Notes: generated by a model from the sequence alone, not told the origin. Positions 6,863-20,300 are shown, counted from the first letter of the stretch. The stretch: DNA of 64,000 nucleotides from Dehalococcoidia bacterium (GCA_963663235.2 CAXXNO010000009.1:84580-148579), one strand, 5' to 3'. Numbers and translations are program-made.

Positions 6863-7199
6863 CGGCGGCGGCTGTGTGGGGGAAACGACCTCACCCCCTC
6901 ACCCCCTCACCCCCTCTCCATCGGCAAGCGATGGAGAGGGGGGACCGGAATGCCTGCGCCCGCCGCTGGTCAAGCTGGAGAACGTGCTGTGACGGAGCGC
7001 CGACCCGGGGTGCTGCTTTTGGAGAACGGCGGCGGCTCTGTGGGGGAAACGACCTCACCCCCTCACCCCCTCTCCATCGGCAAGCGATGGAGAGGGGGGA
7101 CCGGAATGCCTGCGCCCGCCGCTGGCCAAGCTAGAGAACGTGCTGTGACGGAACGTCGACCCGGCGTGCTGCTTTTGGAGGACGGCGGCGGCTGTGTGG
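6863..7199. repeat. Tandem array of about 156-164 bp units (2 full plus a partial), each a GC hairpin plus a copy of the carA 5' region
   Basis: Units start at 6863, 7027 and 7183; contain CCCCCTCTCCATCG-GCAAG-CGATGGAGAGGGGG and GTGACGGAGCGCCGACCCGGGGTGCTGCTTTTGGAG, matching 15831-15935. Confidence 0.9.
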
Positions 7200-9655: not shown

Positions 9656-10327
9656 TCACTGCACAGTCTGCGACGCCAGCGACTGCTTGGCGGCGAACAG
9701 TTGCAGATCCTGCGCTCCCCGCAGCCCAAGCTTCTTCACAATATTCGCCTTGTGCTGCGCCACTGTCTTGGGACTGATCACCAGTCCGCCGGCGATATCC
9801 CGCGTGCTCTGGCCCTCGCCGATCAACTGGATGACCTCCCGCTCGCGGCTGCTCAGCAGCGCCAGGTCATCCTGGCGGTCGAGATCGCTCCGCACCGCCA
9901 GCGACACCAGGAGCGGCCCCGCCAGTTCGGGACTGATGTAGGTCTCGCCCCGCGCCACAGCCCGGATCGCCCGTTCCAGCTCCGCCAGGTCGGCGGCCTT
10001 CGATACCAGGCCGACCGCGCCGGCCCGCAGGACATCGAACACGGTCTCCACCCGCGCCGCCGCGGTCAGCACCACAATGCGCGTCTGCGGGCATTCGCGC
10101 TGGATGCGCCGGGTCGCCTCCAGGCCGTCCAGCAGCGGCATCACGATGTCCATCAAGACAACGTCCGGCCGGATCTCAACGACGGCCTCCACCGCCTGGC
10201 GCCCGTTCGCCGCCTGGCCCGCTACCCGGACACCGTCCATGGACTCCAGCGCGATGGCCATGACGCCGCGCAAGAGGCCGTGATCATCGACGATGAAGAC
10301 CGAGATCTCTTCGGTGGCGGTGGTCAT
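9656..10327 (-). CDS. NarL/LuxR family response regulator
   Basis: IVDDH, PDVVLMDIVMP, LSSREREV...ISPKTV HTH. Confidence 0.9.
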   Translation of the reverse strand: MTTATEEISVFIVDDHGLLRGVMAIALESMDGVRVAGQAANGRQAVEAVVEIRPDVVLMDIVMPLLDGLEATRRIQRECPQTRIVVLTAAARVETVFDVLRAGAVGLVSKAADLAELERAIRAVARGETYISPELAGPLLVSLAVRSDLDRQDDLALLSSREREVIQLIGEGQSTRDIAGGLVISPKTVAQHKANIVKKLGLRGAQDLQLFAAKQSLASQTVQ

Positions 10328-10465
10328 GGGCAGCTCCCGCGGGGCCGGAGTTCCTAGGACACCGGCTGAACGAGCCTAGGACAGGGATCATCACCGCCAC
10401 GTCTTAGGACGGGGCGCGTCGATCACGGATCGATCACATGACGGCGGGGGCCGGCGACCCGGAGC

Positions 10466-11172
10466 CTAGGGCGTCCCGGCACCAAGGGTGTAGCCAACTC
10501 GGTTGACCGTGACCACGAAGCGGGCTCCTTGGGATTGGGCTCCAGCTTCCGCCGCAGCCGCCACACGGCCGTGCGCAGGAGGCCGAAGTCATCGACGTAG
10601 GCGGGCCCCCAGACGGCGCGAAGCAAATCGGCCGGCATCAGAACAGCGCCGGCATGCCGGATCAGCTCGGCCAGGAGCCCAAACTCCGTAGGCGTCAACA
10701 CAACCGGCCGGTTATCGACCAGCACACGATGCTTGGCGAAGTCAACGGTGAGGCCATCCAGCCGGAACGGCTGGGACGGCGGGGCCGGGTGGTCCGCCGC
10801 CCGGCGGAGATTGGCGCGCACGCGCGCGATCAATTCCCGCATGCCGAAGGGCTTGATGACGTAGTCATCGGCGCCGAGGTCCAGGCCGCGGACGCGGGAA
10901 TCTTCGCTGTCCCGCGCGGTCAGCATGATGATGGGGACGTCGGAGAACTCGCGCACCAGGTGCACCACGTCGAAGCCGTCGAGGTCCGGCAGCATGAGGT
11001 CCAGGAGCATGCAGTCCGGCGCGCTGTCGCGCGCGCGGGCGATGGCCTGGCCGCCGTCGGCCGCTTCCACCACCCGCCAGCCGATCCGTTCCATCTCCAT
11101 GCGCACGTACCGGCGGATGCGCGGCTGGTCATCCACGACGAGGATGGTGATGTCCTTGGCTGCGTTCACCAT
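10466..11172 (-). CDS. OmpR/KdpE family response regulator (1-nt frameshift near 10523)
   Basis: ILVVDD, LLDLMLPD, GADDYVIKPF, LTPTEFGLL; restoring one C gives the canonical EPRFVVTVNRVGY tail ending at TAG 10466. Confidence 0.8.
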
Positions 11173-11326
11173 GCAAGTCCCGCGAGCCGTGCTGGAAGGA
11201 GGCGACAACCGCGGATGGGTCCATCCGGCAGGCTCAGTTTGCCCCGTCCATCGCCGTCCCGGCGCCGATAGGCATCACCGGCCCCGACAGCCGTCCCGCA
11301 TCTATCCTGCGAGAAGCACGGTACCG

Positions 11327-11685: not shown

Positions 11686-12345
11686 CTATCCCTCCGCCGC
11701 GGCCTCCCGCTGATCGAACTCGATTGCGGCGTCCAGATCCGCCAGCAGCGCGTCCAGGTCCAACGGCTGCCGGAAATCGGGCGGCCGACGGTAGGTCACG
11801 AGGGCGATGATATCGCCCCGGAGCAGGGCGGCGGCCTCGGCGTCGTCGCCCTCCACCGTGAAAGCGTAGCGACGGGCGCTGTCTCCCAGGCCGCGGACCA
11901 CCCCGATCGATCGCACGCCACGGAAGTTGGGATTGTCCGCCAAGGTGTCGACGAAGGCCGTGAAGAACGGGCCGGGGTCGACGTCGGGCTCCAGCATGAG
12001 CACGTCCACGGAGAGCACTTCGTTCGTGATGGCGACCCGGTAGGTGGCGCGGGCGGCGCCGGTCACCAGGCCCAGGGAGAGGATCGGTTCGCGGTCGTCG
12101 CGGGCGACTTCCAGAAAGCGGTCCGGCAACTCCACGCTGTCGCGCAGCAGGTATCGCTCCAGGAAGGGATCGTTGACGAAGGGCGCCGATTCATCGACGG
12201 GCAGTTGGAACGCGGGCGGGAGCGGCTGGGGAGGCGGCGGCGGGGCCGTTTCCGCCTCCTCCTCGCCGTCGCCCGAGCAGGCGGCGCTCAGGACAATCAC
12301 GACGCCCGCCAGCGCCGCCGTGGGGATGAAGCCGCGTCGGATCAT
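11686..12345 (-). CDS. Hypothetical lipoprotein
   Basis: Signal peptide with lipobox LSAAC followed by a Pro-rich linker. Confidence 0.65.
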   Translation of the reverse strand: MIRRGFIPTAALAGVVIVLSAACSGDGEEEAETAPPPPPQPLPPAFQLPVDESAPFVNDPFLERYLLRDSVELPDRFLEVARDDREPILSLGLVTGAARATYRVAITNEVLSVDVLMLEPDVDPGPFFTAFVDTLADNPNFRGVRSIGVVRGLGDSARRYAFTVEGDDAEAAALLRGDIIALVTYRRPPDFRQPLDLDALLADLDAAIEFDQREAAAEG

Positions 12346-12465
12346 CGCAACGCCTGCAACCCGCCAGCCTGGTCGCCAGTGTATGGGGGTTGCCAGTGTA
12401 TGGAGAGCCCGGCGCGGCGCCCGAGCAGTCTGCGCGCGCCGACCATCGTTCTGGTCGCGAACGTC

Positions 12466-12528
12466 TGTGCTATGCTCGCTCGGACGGAAACGTTGGACTT
12501 TAATCCCGGTCCCGTGAGGCCGGAAAGG
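12466..12528 (+). promoter_or_regulatory. pyr operon promoter (extended -10) and PyrR-binding RNA loop
   Basis: TGTGcTATGCT at 12466-12476; CTTTAA...GGTCCCGTGAGGCC...AAGG at 12498-12528 fits the PyrR ARUCCNGNGAGGYU motif. Confidence 0.8.
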
Positions 12529-12601
12529 ACAACGGGGCGCAGCATGCGCGAAGGACACCCGAGAGCCGGGCGCCGCCCCCTACACGGGAGAGCGCGGCCC
12601 C

Positions 12602-13168
12602 GTGAGTAGCCCTCACCCGATCCCCACGACCGAGGTCCTCTCCGCCGCCGCGATCCGGCGCGCGCTGGTCCGGATCGCCCACGAGATCGTCGAGCGTCAC
12701 GACGACCCGGCCCGCTTGGTGCTGGTGGGCATGCGCACGCGCGGCGTCCCGCTGGCCGAGCGGATCGCGGGGGCGATCGAGCAATTCGAGGCGGTCCGCG
12801 TACCCGTCGGGGCACTGGACATCGGGCTGCACCGCGACGATCTGCCGCTGCGCGGCACCGCGCCACGGCTGCAACCCAGCAACCTCCCGGCCGCCATCGA
12901 CGAGCAGGTCGTGGTGCTCGTCGACGACGTCCTCTTCACAGGCCGCTCGATCCGGGCCGCGCTGGACGCACTGATCGACTACGGCCGTCCCGGCGCCATC
13001 GAACTGGCCGTGCTGATCGACCGCGGCCACCGCGAGTTGCCCATCCGGCCGGACTACGTAGGCAAGAACGTGCCCACGCAGCGAGCGGACGACGTGGTGG
13101 TGCGGCTGACGGAGACGGACGGGTGCGACGAGGTCATTCTGCGCTCCAGGGCGCCATCGCCCGCGTAG
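12602..13168 (+). CDS. pyrR: Pyrimidine operon regulator/uracil phosphoribosyltransferase
   Basis: [42 protein letters not shown]. Confidence 0.95.
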
Positions 13169-13181
13169 GAGAGGAGCAGCC

Positions 13182-14192
13182 ATGGTCACCAAGCCCCGGA
13201 CCGAAGCGGCCGCCGGCCGCGCGGCCGAACCCGCCGAAGAGGCCTCTGCGCAGCCGTGGCCGCACCGCCACCTCCTGGACGTGGACCAACTCACGGCCGC
13301 GGAGATCTTGCGTCTGATCGAGACCACCGAAGCCATGGAGGAGGTCCTGCACCGCCGCGTGCCGCGAACGCCCACCCTGCGCGGCGTCACTCTGTTCACG
13401 CTCTTCTACGAGGCCAGCACCCGCACGCGCGCCTCGTTCGAGCTAGCGGGCAAGGTGCTGGGCGCCGACGTCATCAACATCGCCGCGGGCAGTGCGAGCA
13501 TCGAGAAGGGGGAGTCGCTGCTCGATACCGTGCGCACGCTCCAGGCCATCGGCGCGGACATCATCGCGCTGCGCCACCCGCACGCCGGCGCGCCCTATCT
13601 CGCCGCCCGCCACGGCAGCGCGCACATCGTCAACGCGGGCGACGGCGCGCACGCCCACCCGACGCAGGCCCTGCTCGACGCCTACACGCTGCGCAAGGCG
13701 CTGGGAACCATTGAGGGCAAGCGAGTGTGCATCGTGGGGGACATCAAGCACTCGCGTGTAGCGCGATCAAACATCTGGGCGCTGACGAAGTTGGGGGCGC
13801 AGGTGACCCTGGTCGGCCCCAGCACCCTGATGCCCGCCGGGCTCAATGCGTCGCATCCGCTGGCGCTGCCATCGGTCACAACGGATGACGACTTGGACCG
13901 CGCGATCGCCGGAGCGGACGCAGTGATGACCCTGCGCCTGCAGCGGGAGCGCATGCAGAGCGCGTTGTTGCCGTCGGAGCGCGAGTACGCGCGTCGCTAC
14001 CAGATCACGCCCGCCCGCCTCGCGCGCGCCGCGCGCGGAGCGCCCGTCCTCCACCCCGGTCCGATGAACGAGGGGATCGAGATCGCGCCGGAGGTGGCGC
14101 ACGGCAGGCAAAGCGAGATCGAAAGACAGGTCGAGCACGGCGTAGCCGTGCGCATGGCCGTGCTCTACCTCTTGGGCCGGGGCACAGAATGA
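13182..14192 (+). CDS. pyrB: Aspartate carbamoyltransferase catalytic subunit
   Basis: FYEASTRTRASF, NAGDG..HPTQ, LRLQRER, HPGP. Confidence 0.95.
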   Translation: MVTKPRTEAAAGRAAEPAEEASAQPWPHRHLLDVDQLTAAEILRLIETTEAMEEVLHRRVPRTPTLRGVTLFTLFYEASTRTRASFELAGKVLGADVINIAAGSASIEKGESLLDTVRTLQAIGADIIALRHPHAGAPYLAARHGSAHIVNAGDGAHAHPTQALLDAYTLRKALGTIEGKRVCIVGDIKHSRVARSNIWALTKLGAQVTLVGPSTLMPAGLNASHPLALPSVTTDDDLDRAIAGADAVMTLRLQRERMQSALLPSEREYARRYQITPARLARAARGAPVLHPGPMNEGIEIAPEVAHGRQSEIERQVEHGVAVRMAVLYLLGRGTE

Positions 14193-14329
14193 CCGCCCTG
14201 CTGATCCGCGGGGGGCGGGTGATGGACCTCACCCCCCGGCCCCCTCTCCATCGTGACCGATGGAGAGGGGGAGAAAGAATGGGGACGGTGTTGAGCCGGG
14301 ATGCGGCGCACGAGGAGCCGGCGCGATGA
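14189..14329 (+). other. 46-codon ORF made of a duplicate pyrC start plus the hairpin element
   Basis: MTALLIRGGRVMD-LTPRPPLHRDRWRGG...EEPAR*; ATGA overlap with the pyrB stop and with the pyrC start. Confidence 0.6.
14226..14273. repeat. REP-like GC hairpin element (48 bp, identical to 17242-17289)
   Basis: ACCTCACCCCCCGG-CCCCCTCTCCATCG-TGAC-CGATGGAGAGGGGG-AG; perfect 14-bp stem. Confidence 0.9.
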
Positions 14330-15657
14330 CGGATCTGCTGATCCGCGGGGGGCGGGTGATAGACCCGGCGAACGGCGTGGATGCCCTCCTGGACGTGCTC
14401 GTGCAAGACGGGCGGATCGCGGCCGTCGGCGTCGACGCGCCGGTCGACGCGCCCGTGCTGGACGCCAGCGGGCTGGTCGTGGCGGCCGGCTTCGTCGACC
14501 TGCACACGCACCTGCGGGAGCCGGGCGAAGAGCACAAAGAGACCATCGCCAGCGGGACCGCCGCCGCCGCCCGTGGCGGCTTCACCACCGTCTGTGCCAT
14601 GCCGAACACGAGCCCAGCGATGGACAGCGCGGCCGTGGTGGCGCAGGTGCTGAACGCCGCCCGGGGAGCGCCGGCCCGGGTGCTGCCCGTCGGCGCGATC
14701 ACCAAGGGACGCGCCGGCAAAGAGCTGGCCGAGATGGAGGAGTTGCGCGCGGCCGGCGTCGTGGCGTTCAGCGACGACGGCGCCGGCGTCGCCGACGGCG
14801 GCGTAGCCCGCCGGGCCTGCGAGTACGCCGCCGACCTGGGCCTACCGATCAGCGAACACTGCGAGGACCCGGCCCTGGCCGAGGGCGGCCTGATGCACGA
14901 AGGCGCCATCGCAACGCGGCTCGGCCTGCCCGCACAGCCGGCCGAAGCCGAAGTGGCCATGGTCGAGCGCGACCTGCGCCTGGCGGAACGGACCGGCGTC
15001 CGCCTGCACCTGGCCCATATCAGCACGGCGGCGGCGTGCGCGGCGATCGCAAGCGCCAAGGCGCGCGGTCTCTTGGTGACCGCGGAAGTCACGCCCCATC
15101 ACCTCTTCCTCACCGACGCCGCCGTCGCCGGAGCCGCCGAGACGCCAGGCGCCCTCGCCTACGACACCAACGCCAAGGTCAACCCGCCGCTGCGCAGCGC
15201 GGACGACATCGCCGCCTGCATCGAGGCGCTGGCGGAGGGCGTGCTGGATGCCGTGGCCACGGACCACGCCCCACACGCGATCCCCGACAAGCTTTGCGAG
15301 TTCGACCGCGCCGCTTTCGGGATCAGTGGCTTGGAGACGGCCTTCGGCGTGCTGGGGACGCTGGTGGCGCGGGGCGCGTTTCCACTGGCGACTCCTCTGG
15401 CGACCGTGATCGAGCGGCTGACCATCGGGCCGGTGCGGGCGTGGGGGCTGGACCGGGGCGACTTGACCGGGCTGGGGACGTTGGGCATCGGCGCGCCCGC
15501 GGACGTGGCGATCATCGATCCGGACGCGGTGTGGACGGTGAAGCCTGAGAGGTTCGCATCGATGGGGAAGAACACGCCGCTGGCGGGGCGGGAGCTGACG
15601 GGCCGGGTGGTGGCGACGGTGTTCGGGGGTCGGGTGGTACACGAGGAACGGGAGTAG
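14326..15657 (+). CDS. pyrC: Dihydroorotase
   Basis: GFVDLHTHLREPG, MPNT, EVTPHHL, KVNPPLR, ATDHAPH. Confidence 0.95.
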   Translation: MTDLLIRGGRVIDPANGVDALLDVLVQDGRIAAVGVDAPVDAPVLDASGLVVAAGFVDLHTHLREPGEEHKETIASGTAAAARGGFTTVCAMPNTSPAMDSAAVVAQVLNAARGAPARVLPVGAITKGRAGKELAEMEELRAAGVVAFSDDGAGVADGGVARRACEYAADLGLPISEHCEDPALAEGGLMHEGAIATRLGLPAQPAEAEVAMVERDLRLAERTGVRLHLAHISTAAACAAIASAKARGLLVTAEVTPHHLFLTDAAVAGAAETPGALAYDTNAKVNPPLRSADDIAACIEALAEGVLDAVATDHAPHAIPDKLCEFDRAAFGISGLETAFGVLGTLVARGAFPLATPLATVIERLTIGPVRAWGLDRGDLTGLGTLGIGAPADVAIIDPDAVWTVKPERFASMGKNTPLAGRELTGRVVATVFGGRVVHEERE

Positions 15658-15889
15658 ATGAGCGAGCGGCAGCCGGCGGCGCTGGTGCTGGAGGACGGGG
15701 GCGTCTTCTGGGGGGAACGACCTCACCCCCTAACCCCCTCTCCATCGGCAAGCGATGGAGAGGGGGAACGCGCGAGGATACTCCCTGTTCGGGCGGGGCA
15801 GGCCGGCACGAGTGGATCCCAGGAGGGAAGGATGGAGAGGGGGGACCGGAATACCTGCGCCCGCCGATGGCCAAGCTGGAGAACGTGCT
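15658..15889 (+). repeat. Duplicate carA start (MSERQPAALVLEDGGVFWGE) followed by the hairpin element and an orphan second right arm
   Basis: Stem 15734-15747/15753-15766; extra GATGGAGAGGGGGG at 15831-15844; not in frame with carA. Confidence 0.85.
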
Positions 15890-17005
15890 GTGACGGAGCG
15901 CCGGCCCGGCGTGCTGGTTTTGGAGGACGGCGGTGTCCTGCGCGGCCATCGCATCGGCGCGGACGGCGAGGCGTGGGGCGAAGTGGTGTTCAACACATCG
16001 ATGACCGGCTACCAAGAGATGTTGACCGACCCCTCCTACGCCGGGCAGATCCTGGCGCTCACGTATCCGCTGATCGGCAACTACGGGCTGGAACCCCCGA
16101 TCGACGAGAGCGCGCGGGTGCAGGTGCGCGGCCTGGTGGTGCGCGAAGACTGCCAAGCGCCCAGCCATCCTCACGGCGGCGTCACGCTGCACGAGTACCT
16201 CCTGGCCGCCGGCATCCCCGGCCTGGCGGGGGTCGACACGCGCGCGCTCACGCGCCGGCTGCGGAAGCGGGGCGTGATGCAAGGGCTGATCGTCGAGCCC
16301 GCGGAGATCGAGCGCGCGCGCGCGCGCCTGGCGGACCTGCCCGCCTACGACAGCCAGGACTTCACGGGGTCGGTGAGCGCGGCGGCGGCGTACGACTGGG
16401 AGCGGGGGCCGGTCGATGTGGGATCGACGCGAGGCGGTCACCGCATCGTCGTGCTGGACGAAGGCTTGAAGTACAACATCCTGCGCAGCCTGCGGGCGCG
16501 CGACTGTCGAGTGACCGTCGTGCCGGCGCACACCCCGGCGGCGGAGGTGTTGGCGCTGGAGCCGGACGGGGTGGTGCTATCGCCGGGGCCCGGCGACCCG
16601 GCGCTGCGCGACGCGCAGGTGGAGACGACCAAGCGGCTGCTGGGTCGCGTGCCGCTGATGGGCATCTGCCTGGGGCACCAAATGATCGCGCGGGCGCTGG
16701 GGGCTGGCACGTTCAAGCTGAAGTTCGGCCACCGCGGCGGCAACCATCCGGTCAAGGAGCTGAGCACGGGGCGCGTTTCCATCACGGCGCAGAACCACGG
16801 CTACGCGGTCGACCCGGAGAGGCTGGAGGGGGGCGCGTCGGTGAGCCACATCAACCTGCACGACGGGACGGTCGAGGGGCTGACGCATCGCGAGTATCCA
16901 TTGGTGTCGATCCAGTACCACTCGGAGGCGTCGCCGGGGCCGCTGGACAACGGGTATTTGTTCGACCGGTTCTTGGAGATGGTGCGTGAGGCGAAGGGGG
17001 GCTGA
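15890..17005 (+). CDS. carA: Carbamoyl-phosphate synthase small subunit
   Basis: LVLEDG, GEVVFNTSMTGYQE, SPGPGDP, GICLGHQ, QYHSEASPGP; GTG start with GGAG RBS. Confidence 0.95.
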   Translation: MTERRPGVLVLEDGGVLRGHRIGADGEAWGEVVFNTSMTGYQEMLTDPSYAGQILALTYPLIGNYGLEPPIDESARVQVRGLVVREDCQAPSHPHGGVTLHEYLLAAGIPGLAGVDTRALTRRLRKRGVMQGLIVEPAEIERARARLADLPAYDSQDFTGSVSAAAAYDWERGPVDVGSTRGGHRIVVLDEGLKYNILRSLRARDCRVTVVPAHTPAAEVLALEPDGVVLSPGPGDPALRDAQVETTKRLLGRVPLMGICLGHQMIARALGAGTFKLKFGHRGGNHPVKELSTGRVSITAQNHGYAVDPERLEGGASVSHINLHDGTVEGLTHREYPLVSIQYHSEASPGPLDNGYLFDRFLEMVREAKGG

Positions 17006-17343
17006 TGGGCACACGGTTGCCGGGAACCGGCATGCTCCTGTTGCTCGCGGTAACGGCGGGAACCGTCGGGACCGTGTCGTTCGGGTTCGGGCTGGCGTGC
17101 TTCGCGAGCGGCGACGCGGGGGTTGACTGCGCGGTCCTCACGGTTGCCGTGCCGTTCGTCGCGTGGCCGTTGGGGATCGCGCTGGCGATCCTGGGAGCGG
17201 CGCGGCGGGGCTGGCTGGTGGCTTTCGAGGAGGAGGAGAGAACCTCACCCCCCGGCCCCCTCTCCATCGTGACCGATGGAGAGGGGGAGCAAGCATCGGC
17301 ATCGTCGAAGGCACGCTCGACGGCGGGGGAGAGGCGAGGATGA
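17005..17343 (+). CDS. Small membrane protein (about 2 TM) whose C-terminus is read through the hairpin element
   Basis: TGATG coupling to the carA stop; two hydrophobic segments; tail TSPPGPLSIVTDGEGE is encoded by the repeat. Confidence 0.5.
   Translation: MGTRLPGTGMLLLLAVTAGTVGTVSFGFGLACFASGDAGVDCAVLTVAVPFVAWPLGIALAILGAARRGWLVAFEEEERTSPPGPLSIVTDGEGEQASASSKARSTAGERRG
17242..17289. repeat. REP-like GC hairpin element
   Basis: 48/48 identical to 14226-14273. Confidence 0.9.
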
Positions 17344-17357
17344 ACGGGTGAGCAGCC

Positions 17358-20300
17358 GTGCATAAGCCTCGCAAGGTGCTGATCATCGGCAGCGGGCCGA
17401 TCGTCATCGGGCAGGCGGCCGAGTTCGACTACGCCGGCACGCAGGCCTGCAAGGCGATGCGCGAGGAGGGCGTGACCTCCGTCCTAGTGAACTCGAACCC
17501 GGCGACGATCATGACCGACGAGGACGTGGCGGACGTGGTCTACATCGAACCGCTGACCGTCGACGTGCTCACCCGCGTGATCGAGCGGGAGCGGCCGGAC
17601 GGCCTGCTGCCCACGCTGGGCGGGCAAACGGCGCTGAACCTGGCGGTGGAGCTGGCCGACGCGGGGGTGCTAGAGCGCCACAACGTGCGGCTGCTGGGCA
17701 CGCCGCTGGAGACGATCAAGAACGCCGAGGACCGCGAGCGCTTCAAAACCATGCTGCGAGCGATCGACGAGCCATCGCCGCCGAGCCGCACGGTTACCAC
17801 GGCGAAGGAAGCGGACCAAGCGCTCGCGGAGATCGGCCTGCCGGCGGTGATCCGCCCCGCGTACACCCTGGGAGGAACGGGCGGCGGCATCGCGCGGACG
17901 AGCGACGAGTTCGCCACGCTCGTCCGCGGCGGACTGGCGGCCAGCCCAATCACCCAAGTGTTAATCGAGCAGTCCCTGCTGGGCTGGAAGGAGATCGAGT
18001 ACGAGGTGATGCGGGACGCCGCCGACACCTGCATCACGGTCTGCAACATGGAAAACCTGGACCCGATGGGCGTGCACACGGGCGACTCGATCGTCGTCGC
18101 GCCCAGCCAGACGCTCTCCGACAAAGACTACCAGCGGCTGCGATCGGCGGCGCTCAAGATCATCCGGGCGCTGGGGATCGAAGGCGGCTGCAACATCCAG
18201 TTCGCGCTTGCGCCGCGTCCCGACATCGTGGAGTGGGGCCCTGCGCCGGACGACGGCTCCCTGCCCTACCACGTGATTGAGGTCAACCCGCGCGTCAGCC
18301 GATCATCGGCGCTGGCCAGCAAAGCGACCGGCTACCCGATCGCACGGGTGGCGGCGAAGATCGCCGCGGGGAAGCGGCTGGACGAAATCCCGAACGCGGT
18401 CACGAGCAAGACCAGCGCCGCGTTCGAGCCGGCGCTGGACTACGTCGTGGTCAAGATCCCGCGGTGGCCGTTCGACAAGTTCGGCGCCGGCGACCGTTCC
18501 CTGGGCACGCAGATGAAGGCCACCGGGGAAGTCATGGCTATCGAGCGCAGCTTCGGCGCTGCCTTGCAGAAGGCCGTGCGCTCGCTGGAGATCGGTGGCC
18601 GCACATTGCTGTGGGAGGAGCGCGGGGATCTGGATCCCTCGACCGCCGCGCAGACCGCCACGGACAACCGCCTCTGGCACCTCATGGCCGCGCTGCGTCG
18701 CGACGCGGATCCCATCGCCCTAGCCAAGCGGACGGGGATCGATCCGTGGTTCCTGGACCGACTGCTAGAGCTGGTCCGCATGGAGCAGCGGCTGCTGTCG
18801 GAGCCGCTGCTCCACGCCTTGCTCTACGAGGCCAAGCGCACGGGGTTCAGCGACGAACAGATCGCCAACCTGTCCGGCTCCGTCACCGAGAAAGTGCGCC
18901 AGCTGCGGATCGATCGGGGCATCCGACCCGTCTACAAGATGGTCGATACCTGCGCCGCCGAGTTCGACGCCGCCACGCCGTATTTCTACTCCACCTACGA
19001 GGAGGAGAATGAAGCGCTCCCCGACGCGACTCCCAGGGCGCTAGTCATCGGCAGCGGGCCGATCCGCATCGGCCAGGGGATCGAGTTCGACTACTGCTCG
19101 GTGAAAGCGGCGCAGGCGCTGCAGGCGGCCGGCTACGCGGCGATCATGGCCAACAGCAACCCGGAGACGGTCTCCACCGACTTCGACACCTCCAACCGCC
19201 TCTATTTTGAGCCGCTCGACGAAGAGGCCGTGCGCGACATCCTGGACAACGAACAAGGGCGCGACGGCGGCGCCCCCGTGGCCAGCATCCTGCAGTTCGG
19301 CGGCCAGACCGCGATCAACCTCGCCGAACCGCTCAGCGTCGCGGCGCAGCCCATCCTGGGCTCATCCGCGGAGGCCATCGATCGGGCCGAAGACCGCAAG
19401 CGCTTCGAGGCGTTCCTGGCGGACCTCGGCATCCCCCAGCCCCCCGGCACCACCGTCACCAACGTCGAGGATGCGGTGATCGCGGCGGAGACCATCGGCT
19501 ATCCGGTGGTGGTACGCCCGTCCTACGTGCTCGGCGGGCGGGCGATGGAGATCGTGCAGGATCCGAGCGAGGTGGCACGCTACATGAACGAAGCGCTGGA
19601 GTCGTCACCCGACCGGCCGGTGCTGATCGACAGGTACCTCGCCGGGCTGGAGGTGGAGGTCGACGCCATCTGCGACGGCCAGCAGGTGCTGATCCCCGGC
19701 ATCATGGAGCACATCGAGCGGGCTGGCGTCCACTCCGGCGACTCCATGGCCGTCTATCCCGCCCCCAGCCTGCGCCCCGAAGAGGTGGAGACGATCACCG
19801 CCTACACGCGGCAGATCGGCCTGGCGTTGGAGGTGCGCGGCCTGATGAACGCCCAGTACGTCGTGATGCGGCGCGGGGAGGAGAGCGACATCTTCGTCCT
19901 GGAGGTGAACCCCCGCGCCAGCCGCACCGTCCCCTTTCTCAGCAAAGTGACCACCGTGCCCATGGTCCACGTGGCCGATCAATGTGATGCTGGGTCGCAG
20001 CCTGGCGGATCAGGGCTACCCCGACGGTCTCTGGCCGGAGCGCGACCTCGTGGCGATCAAAGCGCCGGTGTTCAGCATGGCCAAGCTCACCGGCGTCGAC
20101 ACCTACCTGGGCCCCGAGATGAAATCCACCGGCGAAGTGATGGGCATCGACCGGACCCTGGAGCGCGCCCTGGCCAAGGCGCTGCTGGCCGCGGACGCAT
20201 CGCTGCCGCGCGACGGGACCGTGCTGCTGAGCATCGCCGACAGGGACAAGCCCAGCGCGATTCCCATGATCCGCAACCTGGGCGCCGCGGGCTACCGCAT

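What the first reader, a model, noticed from the sequence alone, without database searches (positions are those of the whole stretch)
15658..15950. Second case: carA has a false start, a hairpin, then a real start
Seen: immediately after the pyrC stop comes MSERQPAALVLEDGGVFWGE, then the hairpin (loop GCAAG), about 65 bp of filler, an orphan right arm, a new GGAG RBS and GTG-TERRPGVLVLEDGGVLRG. The two starts are homologous but clearly diverged at DNA and protein level. Inference: this is the same mechanism as at pyrC. The divergence suggests either an old event or a replacement start imported from a relative, as some homing elements do.
Basis: partly seen in the sequence, partly recalled or inferred. 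Interest (0 to 1): 0.7.

Follow-up and report, generated by a model that had tools for sequence, protein, structure and literature searches.

The report
Repeat hairpin split carA's start
A small repeated hairpin element has landed inside the first codons of the pyrimidine gene carA, leaving the old start as a dead stub and a second, diverged copy of the start to make the enzyme, which shows how such repeats can enter tightly packed operons without killing genes.

Summary
Right after the pyrC stop lies ATG 15658 with 19 carA-like codons. Then come a perfect 14-bp-stem hairpin (15734-15766), 63 nt of unique filler, the right half of a second hairpin variant, a 45-nt leader with GGAG, and GTG 15890, which opens a complete CarA.

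The two starts match at 39 of 57 nt (0 of 2000 shuffles reach this). The upstream one is out of frame with carA. It is the ancestral start: 49 of 57 nt match the nearest relative, and it keeps the native stop-start junction. All 11 relatives examined have one start and no hairpin.

The hairpin belongs to a REP/MITE-like family: 37 strict copies here and tens in some related genera. I found no RAYT, no IS4-type transposase and no parent IS.

The same layout (orphan gene end beside the element's CCTCACC box, working gene end on the other side) occurs at pyrC, purS, a fourth gene, and a fresh insertion in a related genus whose sister species keeps the empty site.

The element also copied itself, with 89 nt of carA leader and start, to a site upstream of rpmJ.

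How the downstream start became so diverged is unresolved. I favour import from a diverged template over divergence in place.

The parts
15655..15657 (+). pyrC stop codon (TAG), directly abutting the orphan carA ATG
   Evidence: Pfam amidohydrolase/DHOase on 14326-15657
15658..15714 (+). Orphan (ancestral) carA start A', 19 codons, cut off from the gene. Its reading frame is out of frame with carA and stays open to 16989.
   Evidence: 49 of 57 nt identical to the single carA start of relative G003; native TAG-ATG junction; frame
15715..15766 (+). Hairpin element copy 1: left end GAACGA, CCTCACC box (15721-15727), left arm 15734-15747, loop GCAAG, right arm 15753-15766
15767..15815 (+). Filler, unique in the genome, origin unknown
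   Evidence: blastn-short of 15767-15829 finds only itself
15816..15844 (+).
   Evidence: complete variants CCCCCTCTCCATCCTTCCCAGGAGGGAAGGATGGAGAGGGGG seen at other loci
15845..15889 (+). Leader: element right end ACCGGAA, then unique sequence with GGAG (15878-15881) 8 nt before the GTG
   Evidence: found only here and twice upstream of rpmJ; ACCGGA follows the right arm in most G009 copies
15890..17005 (+). carA as now used (GTG start, 371 aa); first 57 nt are the diverged second copy A
   Evidence: Pfam CPSase_sm_chain profile 1-126 matches residues 9-134, plus GATase; N-terminal length agrees with relatives
14189..14228 (+). Orphan pyrC start (ATGA overlap with the pyrB stop). It opens a 46-codon ORF that runs through the hairpin and stops at TGA 14327-14329, overlapping the real ATG.
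   Evidence: 36 of 40 identical to 14326-14365
14227..14325 (+). Hairpin element (box 14227-14233, stem-loop 14240-14271, loop TGAC) plus unique filler with GAGGAG before the real pyrC ATG 14326
   Evidence: an 804-nt contig of run X20 spans 14198-15001 with 0 differences
17243..17299 (+). Third copy of the element (same TGAC-loop subfamily, 55 of 58 identical to the pyrC copy) in the variable carA-carB spacer, inside the tail of a small ORF 17005-17343; no flanking duplication
6863..7199 (+). Two tandem 156-nt units upstream of rpmJ. Each is the hairpin element plus the carA leader plus carA nt 1-44 (93% identical to 15831-15933). They are separated and flanked by three copies of a 17-nt native target CGGCGGCGGCTGTGTGG.
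   Evidence: relatives show the promoter-like target without an insert

Best explanation
**Shown (about 0.85).** A member of a genome-wide family of short palindromic repeats has been inserted after codon 18-19 of carA. The element has a CCTCACCCCC box followed by a 14-bp-stem hairpin and is REP/MITE-like. ATG 15658, which still abuts the pyrC stop, is the original carA start. It is now a 57-nt orphan and is out of frame with the gene. CarA is made from GTG 15890, a second copy of the first 19 codons that has its own GGAG. The gene survived because the event left a complete start on the far side of the insert.

The same layout recurs at five sites. In each, the orphan gene end sits beside the CCTCACC side and next to the native outside flank, and the working gene end sits on the variable side. 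The sites are pyrC, carA, purS, a fourth gene, and a fresh insertion in genus g10.

**Inferred mechanism (about 0.45 for the whole chain; this is the confidence given for this explanation).** The element is not cut and pasted by a classical transposase. It is copied in together with a variable stretch of whatever lies to its right. The junctions form at 4-6 nt microhomologies, and 14-57 nt of target is re-copied, as in replicative template switching. The rpmJ copies show this directly: hairpin plus 89 nt of carA flank, a 17-nt target duplication, and CGGCGG at the right joint.

For carA, I infer that the template was DNA of a diverged relative that carried the hairpin in the spacer upstream of its own carA. 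On that reading, hairpin, leader and a xenologous start came in together and synthesis rejoined the resident gene in the conserved block after codon 20.

**Consequences (inferred).** carA lost translational coupling to pyrC and now depends on its own ribosome-binding site. A very stable RNA hairpin without a U tract now sits between the cistrons. As with REPs elsewhere, it may protect upstream mRNA rather than terminate transcription.
For: **Repeat family.**
- 13 arm matches in the window against 1.57 expected.
- 37 strict hairpins in G000, and about 60 when one mismatch per arm is allowed.
- 36 copies in G009 and 29 in G015.
- Many extra matches in 6 of 30 relatives.

**One start in relatives.** 11 of 11 carA junctions and 8 of 8 readable pyrC junctions have a single start and no hairpin.

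**A' is ancestral.** It keeps the TAG-ATG junction and matches G003 at 49 of 57 nt, against 40 of 57 for A.

**Working start.** The Pfam CarA domain begins at residue 9 of the GTG-15890 protein.

**Recurrent layout.**
- pyrC: 36 of 40 nt duplicated.
- purS: 22 of 23 nt duplicated. The orphan tail is in the native context seen in relative G008.
- Gene at contig C4 about 656 kb: two orphan tails and a shared CTAG stop with the convergent gene.
- G009 C1:452315: the empty site is preserved in G015, with a 14-nt exact duplication.
- G009 C1:907545: a 50-of-51 duplication around a roughly 345-nt insert with the hairpin at its left end.

**Flank co-copying.** Leader plus start occur at exactly three places in the genome. 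The rpmJ target is native in relatives.

**A looks foreign.** 12 changes lie on A's branch against 3 on A' (p = 0.035). Only 5 of the 12 codons that encode the same residue in A and A' are identical codons (my count from the sequences), against a between-genera baseline of 0.60-0.65.

**Not an assembly artefact at the junctions.** Contigs of runs from different studies reproduce A'-hairpin (X1, X18, X19), truncated hairpin-leader-A (X1, X18, X19) and the whole pyrC insert (X20).

**No classical partner.** No Y1/RAYT in G000 or in 18 family relatives. No DDE_Tnp_1 in G000. No longer element bounded by the arms.
Against: **No donor found.** The leader-start junction pattern has 0 hits in genome contigs and in metagenome contigs. 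The A-type peptide pattern has 0 hits in genome contigs. The closest CarA in the metagenome scan is only 66% identical.

**Fillers unexplained.** The fillers at pyrC and carA have no second copy in the genome. So the 'copied flank of another hairpin locus' idea is documented only for the rpmJ event.

**Duplications are rare.** Most hairpin copies have none: 2 of 27 box-plus-hairpin matches in G009, and only a few in G000. The duplication may therefore be a rare outcome kept by selection rather than the rule.

**Weak statistics.** The relative-rate test rests on 15 sites. A' being 86% identical to G003 is not by itself unusual for a conserved coding stretch: 12 of 15 identical codons against a baseline of about 0.63, roughly p = 0.13 by my arithmetic.

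**No phylogenetic discordance.** carA downstream of the start shows none.

**One link not shown.** No listed contig spans 15746-15817, so the physical link across the filler rests on the assembly and on bin depth only.

**No expression data.** No RNA run was listed.
Confidence: 0.45

Rival explanations
1. Ordinary in-place target duplication followed by divergence. An unknown enzyme that makes long staggered cuts inserted the element and duplicated about 57 nt of carA. The two copies then drifted apart, and the working copy changed fast while adapting to a new initiation context (GTG, rarer codons GTT/TTG/GGT).
For: Near-identical duplications of 14, 17, 23, 40 and 51 nt at the other sites show that duplication in place does happen with this element. 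57 nt is within reach of that range. No donor for an imported start was found.
Against: The unconstrained orphan should change at least as fast as the working copy, but the split is 3 against 12. Synonymous differences between A and A' (7 of 12 codons for the same residue) are as numerous as between genera. Many are G/C swaps (my reading of the sequences), and G/C swaps were also the commonest change among contigs laid on this stretch. I read that as long-term divergence rather than a fresh burst of mutation. The orphan still looks like an intact coding start.
Confidence: 0.3
2. Scar of a larger integrative element (phage or island type) that carried a replacement 5' end for carA, as some elements do for tRNA genes or icd, and later lost its interior.
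For: Displaced native fragment plus a diverged replacement end is the hallmark of such integrations (recalled, not from a call). The two copies differ mainly at synonymous sites.
Against: Only 232 nt lie between the starts, and there is no integrase remnant. The same layout occurs at two adjacent genes and at three other sites, always with the same 50-60-nt repeat. The fresh G009 insertion is only about 96 nt. The longest identical run between the two starts is 10 nt, so no clear core exists.
Confidence: 0.07
3. A programmed regulatory device. The short upstream ORF and the hairpins act as a leader peptide or attenuator, or as a PyrR target controlling carA.
For: There are three hairpins within 3.1 kb of one operon. 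At pyrC the orphan ORF ends exactly on the real start codon, so coupling could be relayed.
Against: The hairpin is a genome-wide repeat, found mostly after unrelated genes. It does not match the PyrR site model; the only PyrR-like hit is weak and lies upstream of pyrR at 12498-12527. There is no U tract after the stems. Relatives lack the structure. At carA the orphan ORF does not stop near the real start.
Confidence: 0.05
4. Assembly chimera: two strains or species were joined at the shared repeat, so the two starts never sit on one molecule.
For: Contigs of public runs break at the hairpins, and none listed bridges 15746-15817. The assembly carries a frameshift in carB.
Against: The A'-hairpin joint itself cannot come from an organism with an intact carA, and it is seen in runs of three studies. 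The pyrC counterpart is bridged whole by one contig with 0 differences. The filler bin has depth in all four runs.
Confidence: 0.03

Closest known systems
REP/BIME elements of proteobacteria (RAYT-associated; GTAG- or CGTC-tagged REPs, PMC3733652, passages read)
   Same: Short GC-rich perfect palindrome, tens of copies, mosaic clusters with other repeats. By eye, at least nine of the copies printed for G009 follow a possible stop codon within about 25 nt; frames were not checked. Likely to act as an RNA stem-loop. That paper also notes REPs at predicted N-termini that are probably extragenic because translation starts further downstream.
   Different: No GTAG or CGTC tag. No Y1/RAYT gene in G000 or in 18 family relatives. 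Some insertions carry 14-57-nt duplications of the target and co-copied flank. The word 'duplication' does not occur in that paper.
Bacterial MITEs (Correia/NEMIS, ERIC, RUP, Nezha; recalled and listed in PMC3733652)
   Same: Non-autonomous small element whose arms form terminal inverted repeats. Insertions are flanked by direct repeats. It can change gene ends and operon expression.
   Different: MITE duplications are short and of fixed length. Here they are long and variable. No parent IS with the same ends was found. One end (the CCTCACC side) is constant and the other is variable.
IS elements that make long, variable direct repeats (IS1634/IS1549 group, IS1182; recalled from memory, no paper read)
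   Same: Precedent for target duplications of tens to hundreds of bases with variable length.
   Different: Those are full IS elements with IS4-type transposases. No DDE_Tnp_1 match was found in G000, and the control rang in 9 of 14 genomes.
Integrative elements that bring a replacement gene end (tRNA-gene islands; phage 21/e14 in icd; recalled)
   Same: A displaced native gene fragment lies next to an element-borne, synonymously diverged replacement that keeps the gene intact.
   Different: No recombinase, an insert of only 232 nt, a multi-copy repeat, and the 5' end rather than the 3' end.
Rickettsia palindromic elements inside genes (recalled; cited in PMC3733652)
   Same: A palindromic repeat tolerated within an annotated coding region.
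   Different: RPEs are read through in frame as extra peptide. Here the insert is not in frame, and the gene is rescued by a second start.

Membership tests
REP/RAYT system | Short (20-40 nt) GC-rich palindrome in many copies, mostly extragenic | tested here: met
   14-bp perfect stem with a 4-5 nt loop. 37 strict copies in G000; 36 in G009 and 29 in G015. By eye, at least nine of the G009 copies follow a possible stop codon within about 25 nt (frames not checked).
REP/RAYT system | Conserved GTAG or CGTC tetranucleotide at one end of the palindrome (PMC3733652) | tested here: not met
   The copies listed carry a CCTCACCCCC box plus a 3-4 nt spacer on one side, and often ACCGGA on the other. 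No GTAG or CGTC adjoins the stem.
REP/RAYT system | A Y1 (IS200-like) RAYT transposase gene in the genome | tested here: not met
   PF01797 gives 0 matches in G000 (91.9% complete) and 0 in 18 of 18 family relatives, including hairpin-rich G003, G005, G009 and G015. The control rang in 6 of 14 genomes.
MITE | Terminal inverted repeats | tested here: met
   The two 14-nt arms are perfect inverted repeats. Some copies also have the CCTCACC box on both sides.
MITE | Short target duplication of fixed length | tested here: not met
   Duplications seen: 14, 17, 23, 40, 51, about 57. Most copies have none detectable.
MITE | A parent IS with the same ends | tested here: not met
   In the listing, nearly all 150 unpaired arm-like matches lie in what reads as ordinary coding sequence (by eye), a few being relics of hairpin copies, and none bounds a longer element. 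No DDE_Tnp_1 in G000. The Y2_Tnp search was uninformative because its control rang nowhere.
Integrative element with replacement gene end | Recombinase gene inside the element | tested here: not met
   Only 232 nt separate the starts. Every reading frame listed there continues into carA or into the out-of-frame ORF 15658-16989, so no separate gene fits.
Integrative element with replacement gene end | Displaced native fragment plus diverged replacement end | tested here: met
   A' against A: 39 of 57 nt. A' matches relative G003 at 49 of 57 nt.
In-frame palindromic insertion (RPE-like) | The insert is read through in frame as part of the protein | tested here: not met
   ATG 15658 and GTG 15890 are 232 nt apart, which is not a multiple of 3.
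PyrR-binding attenuator (RF00515) | Match to the PyrR binding-loop model | tested here: not met
   The hairpins give no PyrR hit. The only hit is 12498-12527 upstream of pyrR: 25.6 bits, below the gathering score of 54.

The most novel reading that the evidence does not exclude
The CCTCACC-box hairpins are the fixed end of an undescribed, transposase-independent copy-in process. Through microhomology-guided template switching, it drags along neighbouring DNA and re-copies 14-57 nt of target. This lets the repeats enter overlapping gene junctions by regenerating starts and tails. At carA the process used DNA of another lineage as template, so a housekeeping gene now runs on a xenologous start delivered by a repeat.
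Probability: 0.25. Interest if true: 0.75.

Novelty: new variant of a known kind. Interest (0 to 1): 0.5.

Why it matters
REP-type repeats are usually described as strictly extragenic, and how they move is largely unknown outside RAYT-bearing proteobacteria.

This case is different. A repeat entered the coding 5' ends of two consecutive essential genes of a translationally coupled operon. The genes were kept alive by duplicated starts.

Three features make the mechanism testable:
- an empty site preserved in a sister species;
- a second event that carried gene flank along;
- no known transposase in the genomes searched.

For annotation, it warns that the first in-context ATG after a stop codon can be a fossil. 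Automatic callers would either extend carA wrongly or call a 443-codon junk ORF.

For evolution, it shows one way an overlapping gene junction can acquire a spacer, a new ribosome-binding site and a stable mRNA hairpin in a single step.

Tried and rejected
**Donor hunt.**
- A degenerate pattern for the leader-to-start junction found nothing in genome contigs or metagenome contigs.
- A degenerate pattern for the A-type peptide found nothing in genome contigs.
- The CarA scan of metagenome contigs returned only distant relatives, at most 66% identical.
- Records of the window's own genome, or of one very near it, may be left out of these scans.

**Leader as a relic of a donor gene's 3' end.** The leader frame reads ...PEYLRPPMAKLENVL* with TGA overlapping the GTG. 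No gene in G000 ends like this except the three copies themselves. It does not resemble the PyrC tails of relatives. Part of it (ACCGGAA) belongs to the element. I rejected this as unsupported.

**A' plus the pyrC tail imported from a G003-like lineage.** Windows there reach 87-92% identity to G003. That is within what conserved coding windows reach elsewhere, and the codon test is not significant. I did not adopt this reading.

**Other negatives.**
- No carA paralogue in G000 that could have supplied A.
- Homology between the pyrC filler and the carB-upstream flank stops after the 58-nt core.
- A genome-wide scan for local duplications around repeats added no further genic case.
- Three of the four G009 loci searched against G015 were looked at further. 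Two were aligned and one was judged from its search table. None gave a clean empty site, because paralogous ABC operons and neighbouring repeats obscure the comparison.
- The promoter scan found none in 12300-17500.
- No RNA holder was listed among sequencing runs, so nothing can be said about expression.
- Joints in the laid contigs that skip parts of the stretch come from other organisms at 85% likeness. I did not use them as evidence of excision.
- Literature searches and passages of PMC3733652 gave no description of gene-start duplication by REPs. This is not proof that none is in print.

Full report
**What is there.**

Reading 13900-16400 and the ORF list gives the operon pyrR (12602-13168), pyrB (13182-14192), pyrC (14326-15657), carA (15890-17005) and carB (from 17358). 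All are confirmed by Pfam.

Directly after the pyrC stop (TAG 15655-15657) stands ATG 15658 with 19 CarA-like codons (MSERQPAALVLEDGGVFWG). After that come, in order:
- a CCTCACC box (15721-15727);
- a perfect 14-bp-stem hairpin (15734-15766, loop GCAAG);
- unique filler;
- the right half of a long-loop variant of the same hairpin (15816-15844);
- a 45-nt leader with GGAG, 8 nt before GTG 15890.

GTG 15890 opens VTERRPGVLVLEDGGVLRG and the full CarA. The Pfam small-chain domain starts at residue 9 of this protein.

The two starts align without gaps at 39 of 57 nt. None of 2000 nucleotide shuffles or 2000 codon shuffles reaches that. The two starts are 232 nt apart, so the upstream one is out of frame. 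Its frame happens to stay open to 16989.

**The hairpin is a repeat family.**

The arm occurs 13 times in the window against 1.57 expected. There are five complete hairpins (6910-6942, 7066-7098, 14240-14271, 15734-15766, 17256-17287) and the orphan arm.

The whole assembly (14 contigs, 2.75 Mb, 91.9% complete) holds 37 strict copies, or about 60 if one mismatch per arm is allowed. They are often in mosaic clusters with other repeat families.

Among 30 relatives searched with the region, six had many extra matches to the hairpin part: G003, G005, G009, G015, G019 and G024. An exact pattern found 36 copies in G009 and 29 in G015.

As RNA the stems fold at about -31 to -37 kcal/mol (z about -4) and are not followed by a U tract. 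Rfam has no family for them. The only PyrR-like hit is weak and lies upstream of pyrR.

**Relatives.**

All 11 relatives whose carA junction I read have one start and no hairpin. All 8 whose pyrB-pyrC junction was readable have one pyrC start; three further loci had too little flank.

The upstream carA copy (A') matches the single start of G003 at 49 of 57 nt. The working copy (A) matches it at 40 of 57. With the native TAG-ATG junction, this makes A' the ancestral start.

**The same layout elsewhere.**

- **pyrC.** ATG 14189 overlaps the pyrB stop, and 40 nt are duplicated at 36 of 40. The orphan ORF of 46 codons runs through the hairpin and stops on TGA 14327-14329, overlapping the real ATG. 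Translational coupling could therefore be relayed; this is inference.
- **purS (contig C6).** 22 of 23 nt are duplicated. The orphan tail ...YTVAAVAESPTS* is directly followed by the end of the convergent gene, as in relative G008. The tail in use runs into inserted DNA.
- **A gene on contig C4.** Two orphan tails are each followed by a hairpin variant. The outermost shares its CTAG stop with the convergent methylase-like gene.
- **Genus g10.** G009 and G015 are collinear and about 94-95% identical. At G009 C1:452315 a hairpin lies in the last codons of a gene, while G015 keeps the empty site. 14 nt are duplicated exactly, and the orphan lies on the CCTCACC side next to the native downstream flank.
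- **A further G009 copy.** It has a 50-of-51 duplication around a roughly 345-nt insert with the hairpin at its left end.

In all five genic cases the orphan is on the CCTCACC side.

Such duplications are the exception. Only 2 of 27 box-plus-hairpin matches (25 hairpins) in G009 show one, and only a few in G000 do.

**The element carries flank along.**

Upstream of rpmJ (6863-7199) are two 156-nt units. Each consists of the hairpin element, the carA leader and carA nt 1-44, and is 93% identical to 15831-15933. The units are separated and flanked by three copies of a 17-nt sequence. In relatives this sequence is part of a conserved promoter-like stretch without any insert.

So the hairpin was copied from the carA locus together with 89 nt of its right flank. 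The event came with a 17-nt target duplication and a CGGCGG overlap at the right joint.

The left joints at carA (TGGGG), pyrC (GACC) and purS (CCTCGA) also show a few shared bases with the element's left end (my reading).

No Y1/RAYT gene was found in G000 or in 18 family relatives; the control rang in 6 of 14 genomes. G000 has no DDE_Tnp_1 and no longer element bounded by the arms.

One fixed end, a variable other end, microhomology and variable duplications fit replicative template switching better than a classical transposase. This is inference.

**Why is the carA duplicate so diverged?**

The other duplications are 90-100% identical. The carA one is 68%.

Using G003 as outgroup, 12 changes lie on the branch of the working copy and 3 on the orphan (p = 0.035). 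This is the opposite of what a decaying orphan and a constrained gene would give.

Among the 12 residues shared by A and A', only 5 use the same codon. That is my count from the sequences. The between-genera baseline is 0.60-0.65.

A also shares the V-T-x-x-R-P-x-G beginning of the g10 and g6 starts. I therefore favour a start that evolved for a long time in another lineage and came in with the hairpin and leader.

Against this:
- no donor was found;
- the test rests on 15 sites;
- downstream carA shows no discordant affinity.

Divergence in place remains a serious rival at 0.3.

**Is it real DNA?**

20 rows from 8 studies hold the stretch. Contigs laid from four runs reproduce three junctions:
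- A'-hairpin (X1, X18, X19);
- truncated hairpin-leader-A (X1, X18, X19);
- in X20, the whole pyrC insert, 14198-15001 with 0 differences.

No listed contig bridges 15746-15817. That link rests on the assembly and on depth in that bin.

**Comparison and verdict.**

The element works like a REP or MITE, but it fails defining tests of both. It has no GTAG/CGTC tag and no RAYT. It has no fixed short duplication and no parent IS.

The orphan-plus-replacement layout resembles integrative elements that bring a spare gene end, but no recombinase is present.

I rate it a new variant of a known kind. The insertion mechanism and the origin of the second start remain open.

Noticed in passing
window 19955-19980: carB is split by a frameshift. 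The frame of 17358 reads ...[24 protein letters not shown] and then junk. The CarB sequence ([13 protein letters not shown]..., MGS-like domain) continues in the next frame to 20679. This could be an assembly error or a real lesion.
   Followed up: partly
window 6863-7199: Tandem pair of hairpin plus carA leader plus carA nt 1-44, inserted into a promoter-like stretch upstream of rpmJ, with three copies of a 17-nt target.
   Followed up: yes
L002 (G003:C1 about 691400-691465): Relative G003 has a different repeat (GAGCCGTTCGTCCTTCGACGGGCTCAGGACGAACGG type) between pyrC and carA. Its pyrC stop region looks like a remnant of an ATGAGC... start, and the working start is TTG. This may be an independent hit of the same junction with start regeneration.
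   Followed up: partly
window 12498-12527: Weak PyrR-binding-site match (25.6 bits, below the gathering score of 54) upstream of pyrR. It is the likely true regulatory site of the operon.
   Followed up: no
window 17005-17343: Small hydrophobic ORF (112 aa, no Pfam match) between carA and carB. Its tail is encoded by the third hairpin copy. The carA-carB spacer varies from about 90 to over 500 nt among relatives.
   Followed up: partly
L036 10393-11058 (G015:C3 about 2205400-2206060); L039 about 10117-11243: In G009 and G015 the hairpins often sit at the borders of segments present in one species only. One such segment, between two hairpins, encodes a PIN-domain protein.
   Followed up: partly
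G000 contigs C4, C6, C9, C12 (for example C4:167300-168800, C9:1900-5300): At least two further abundant repeat families form mosaics with the hairpin: CCTCACCCTTCCGCTGTGCGAAGGGCGCAAGCGCCCCCTGGCC and CCTTCGAC(A/T)...GCTCAGGACAGGC.
   Followed up: no
L156 (G003:C1:1083900-1083970): G003 carries a hairpin of another loop subtype directly after its purS stop. This is the same intergenic spot as in G000, but without an orphan tail, so it is probably an independent insertion.
   Followed up: partly
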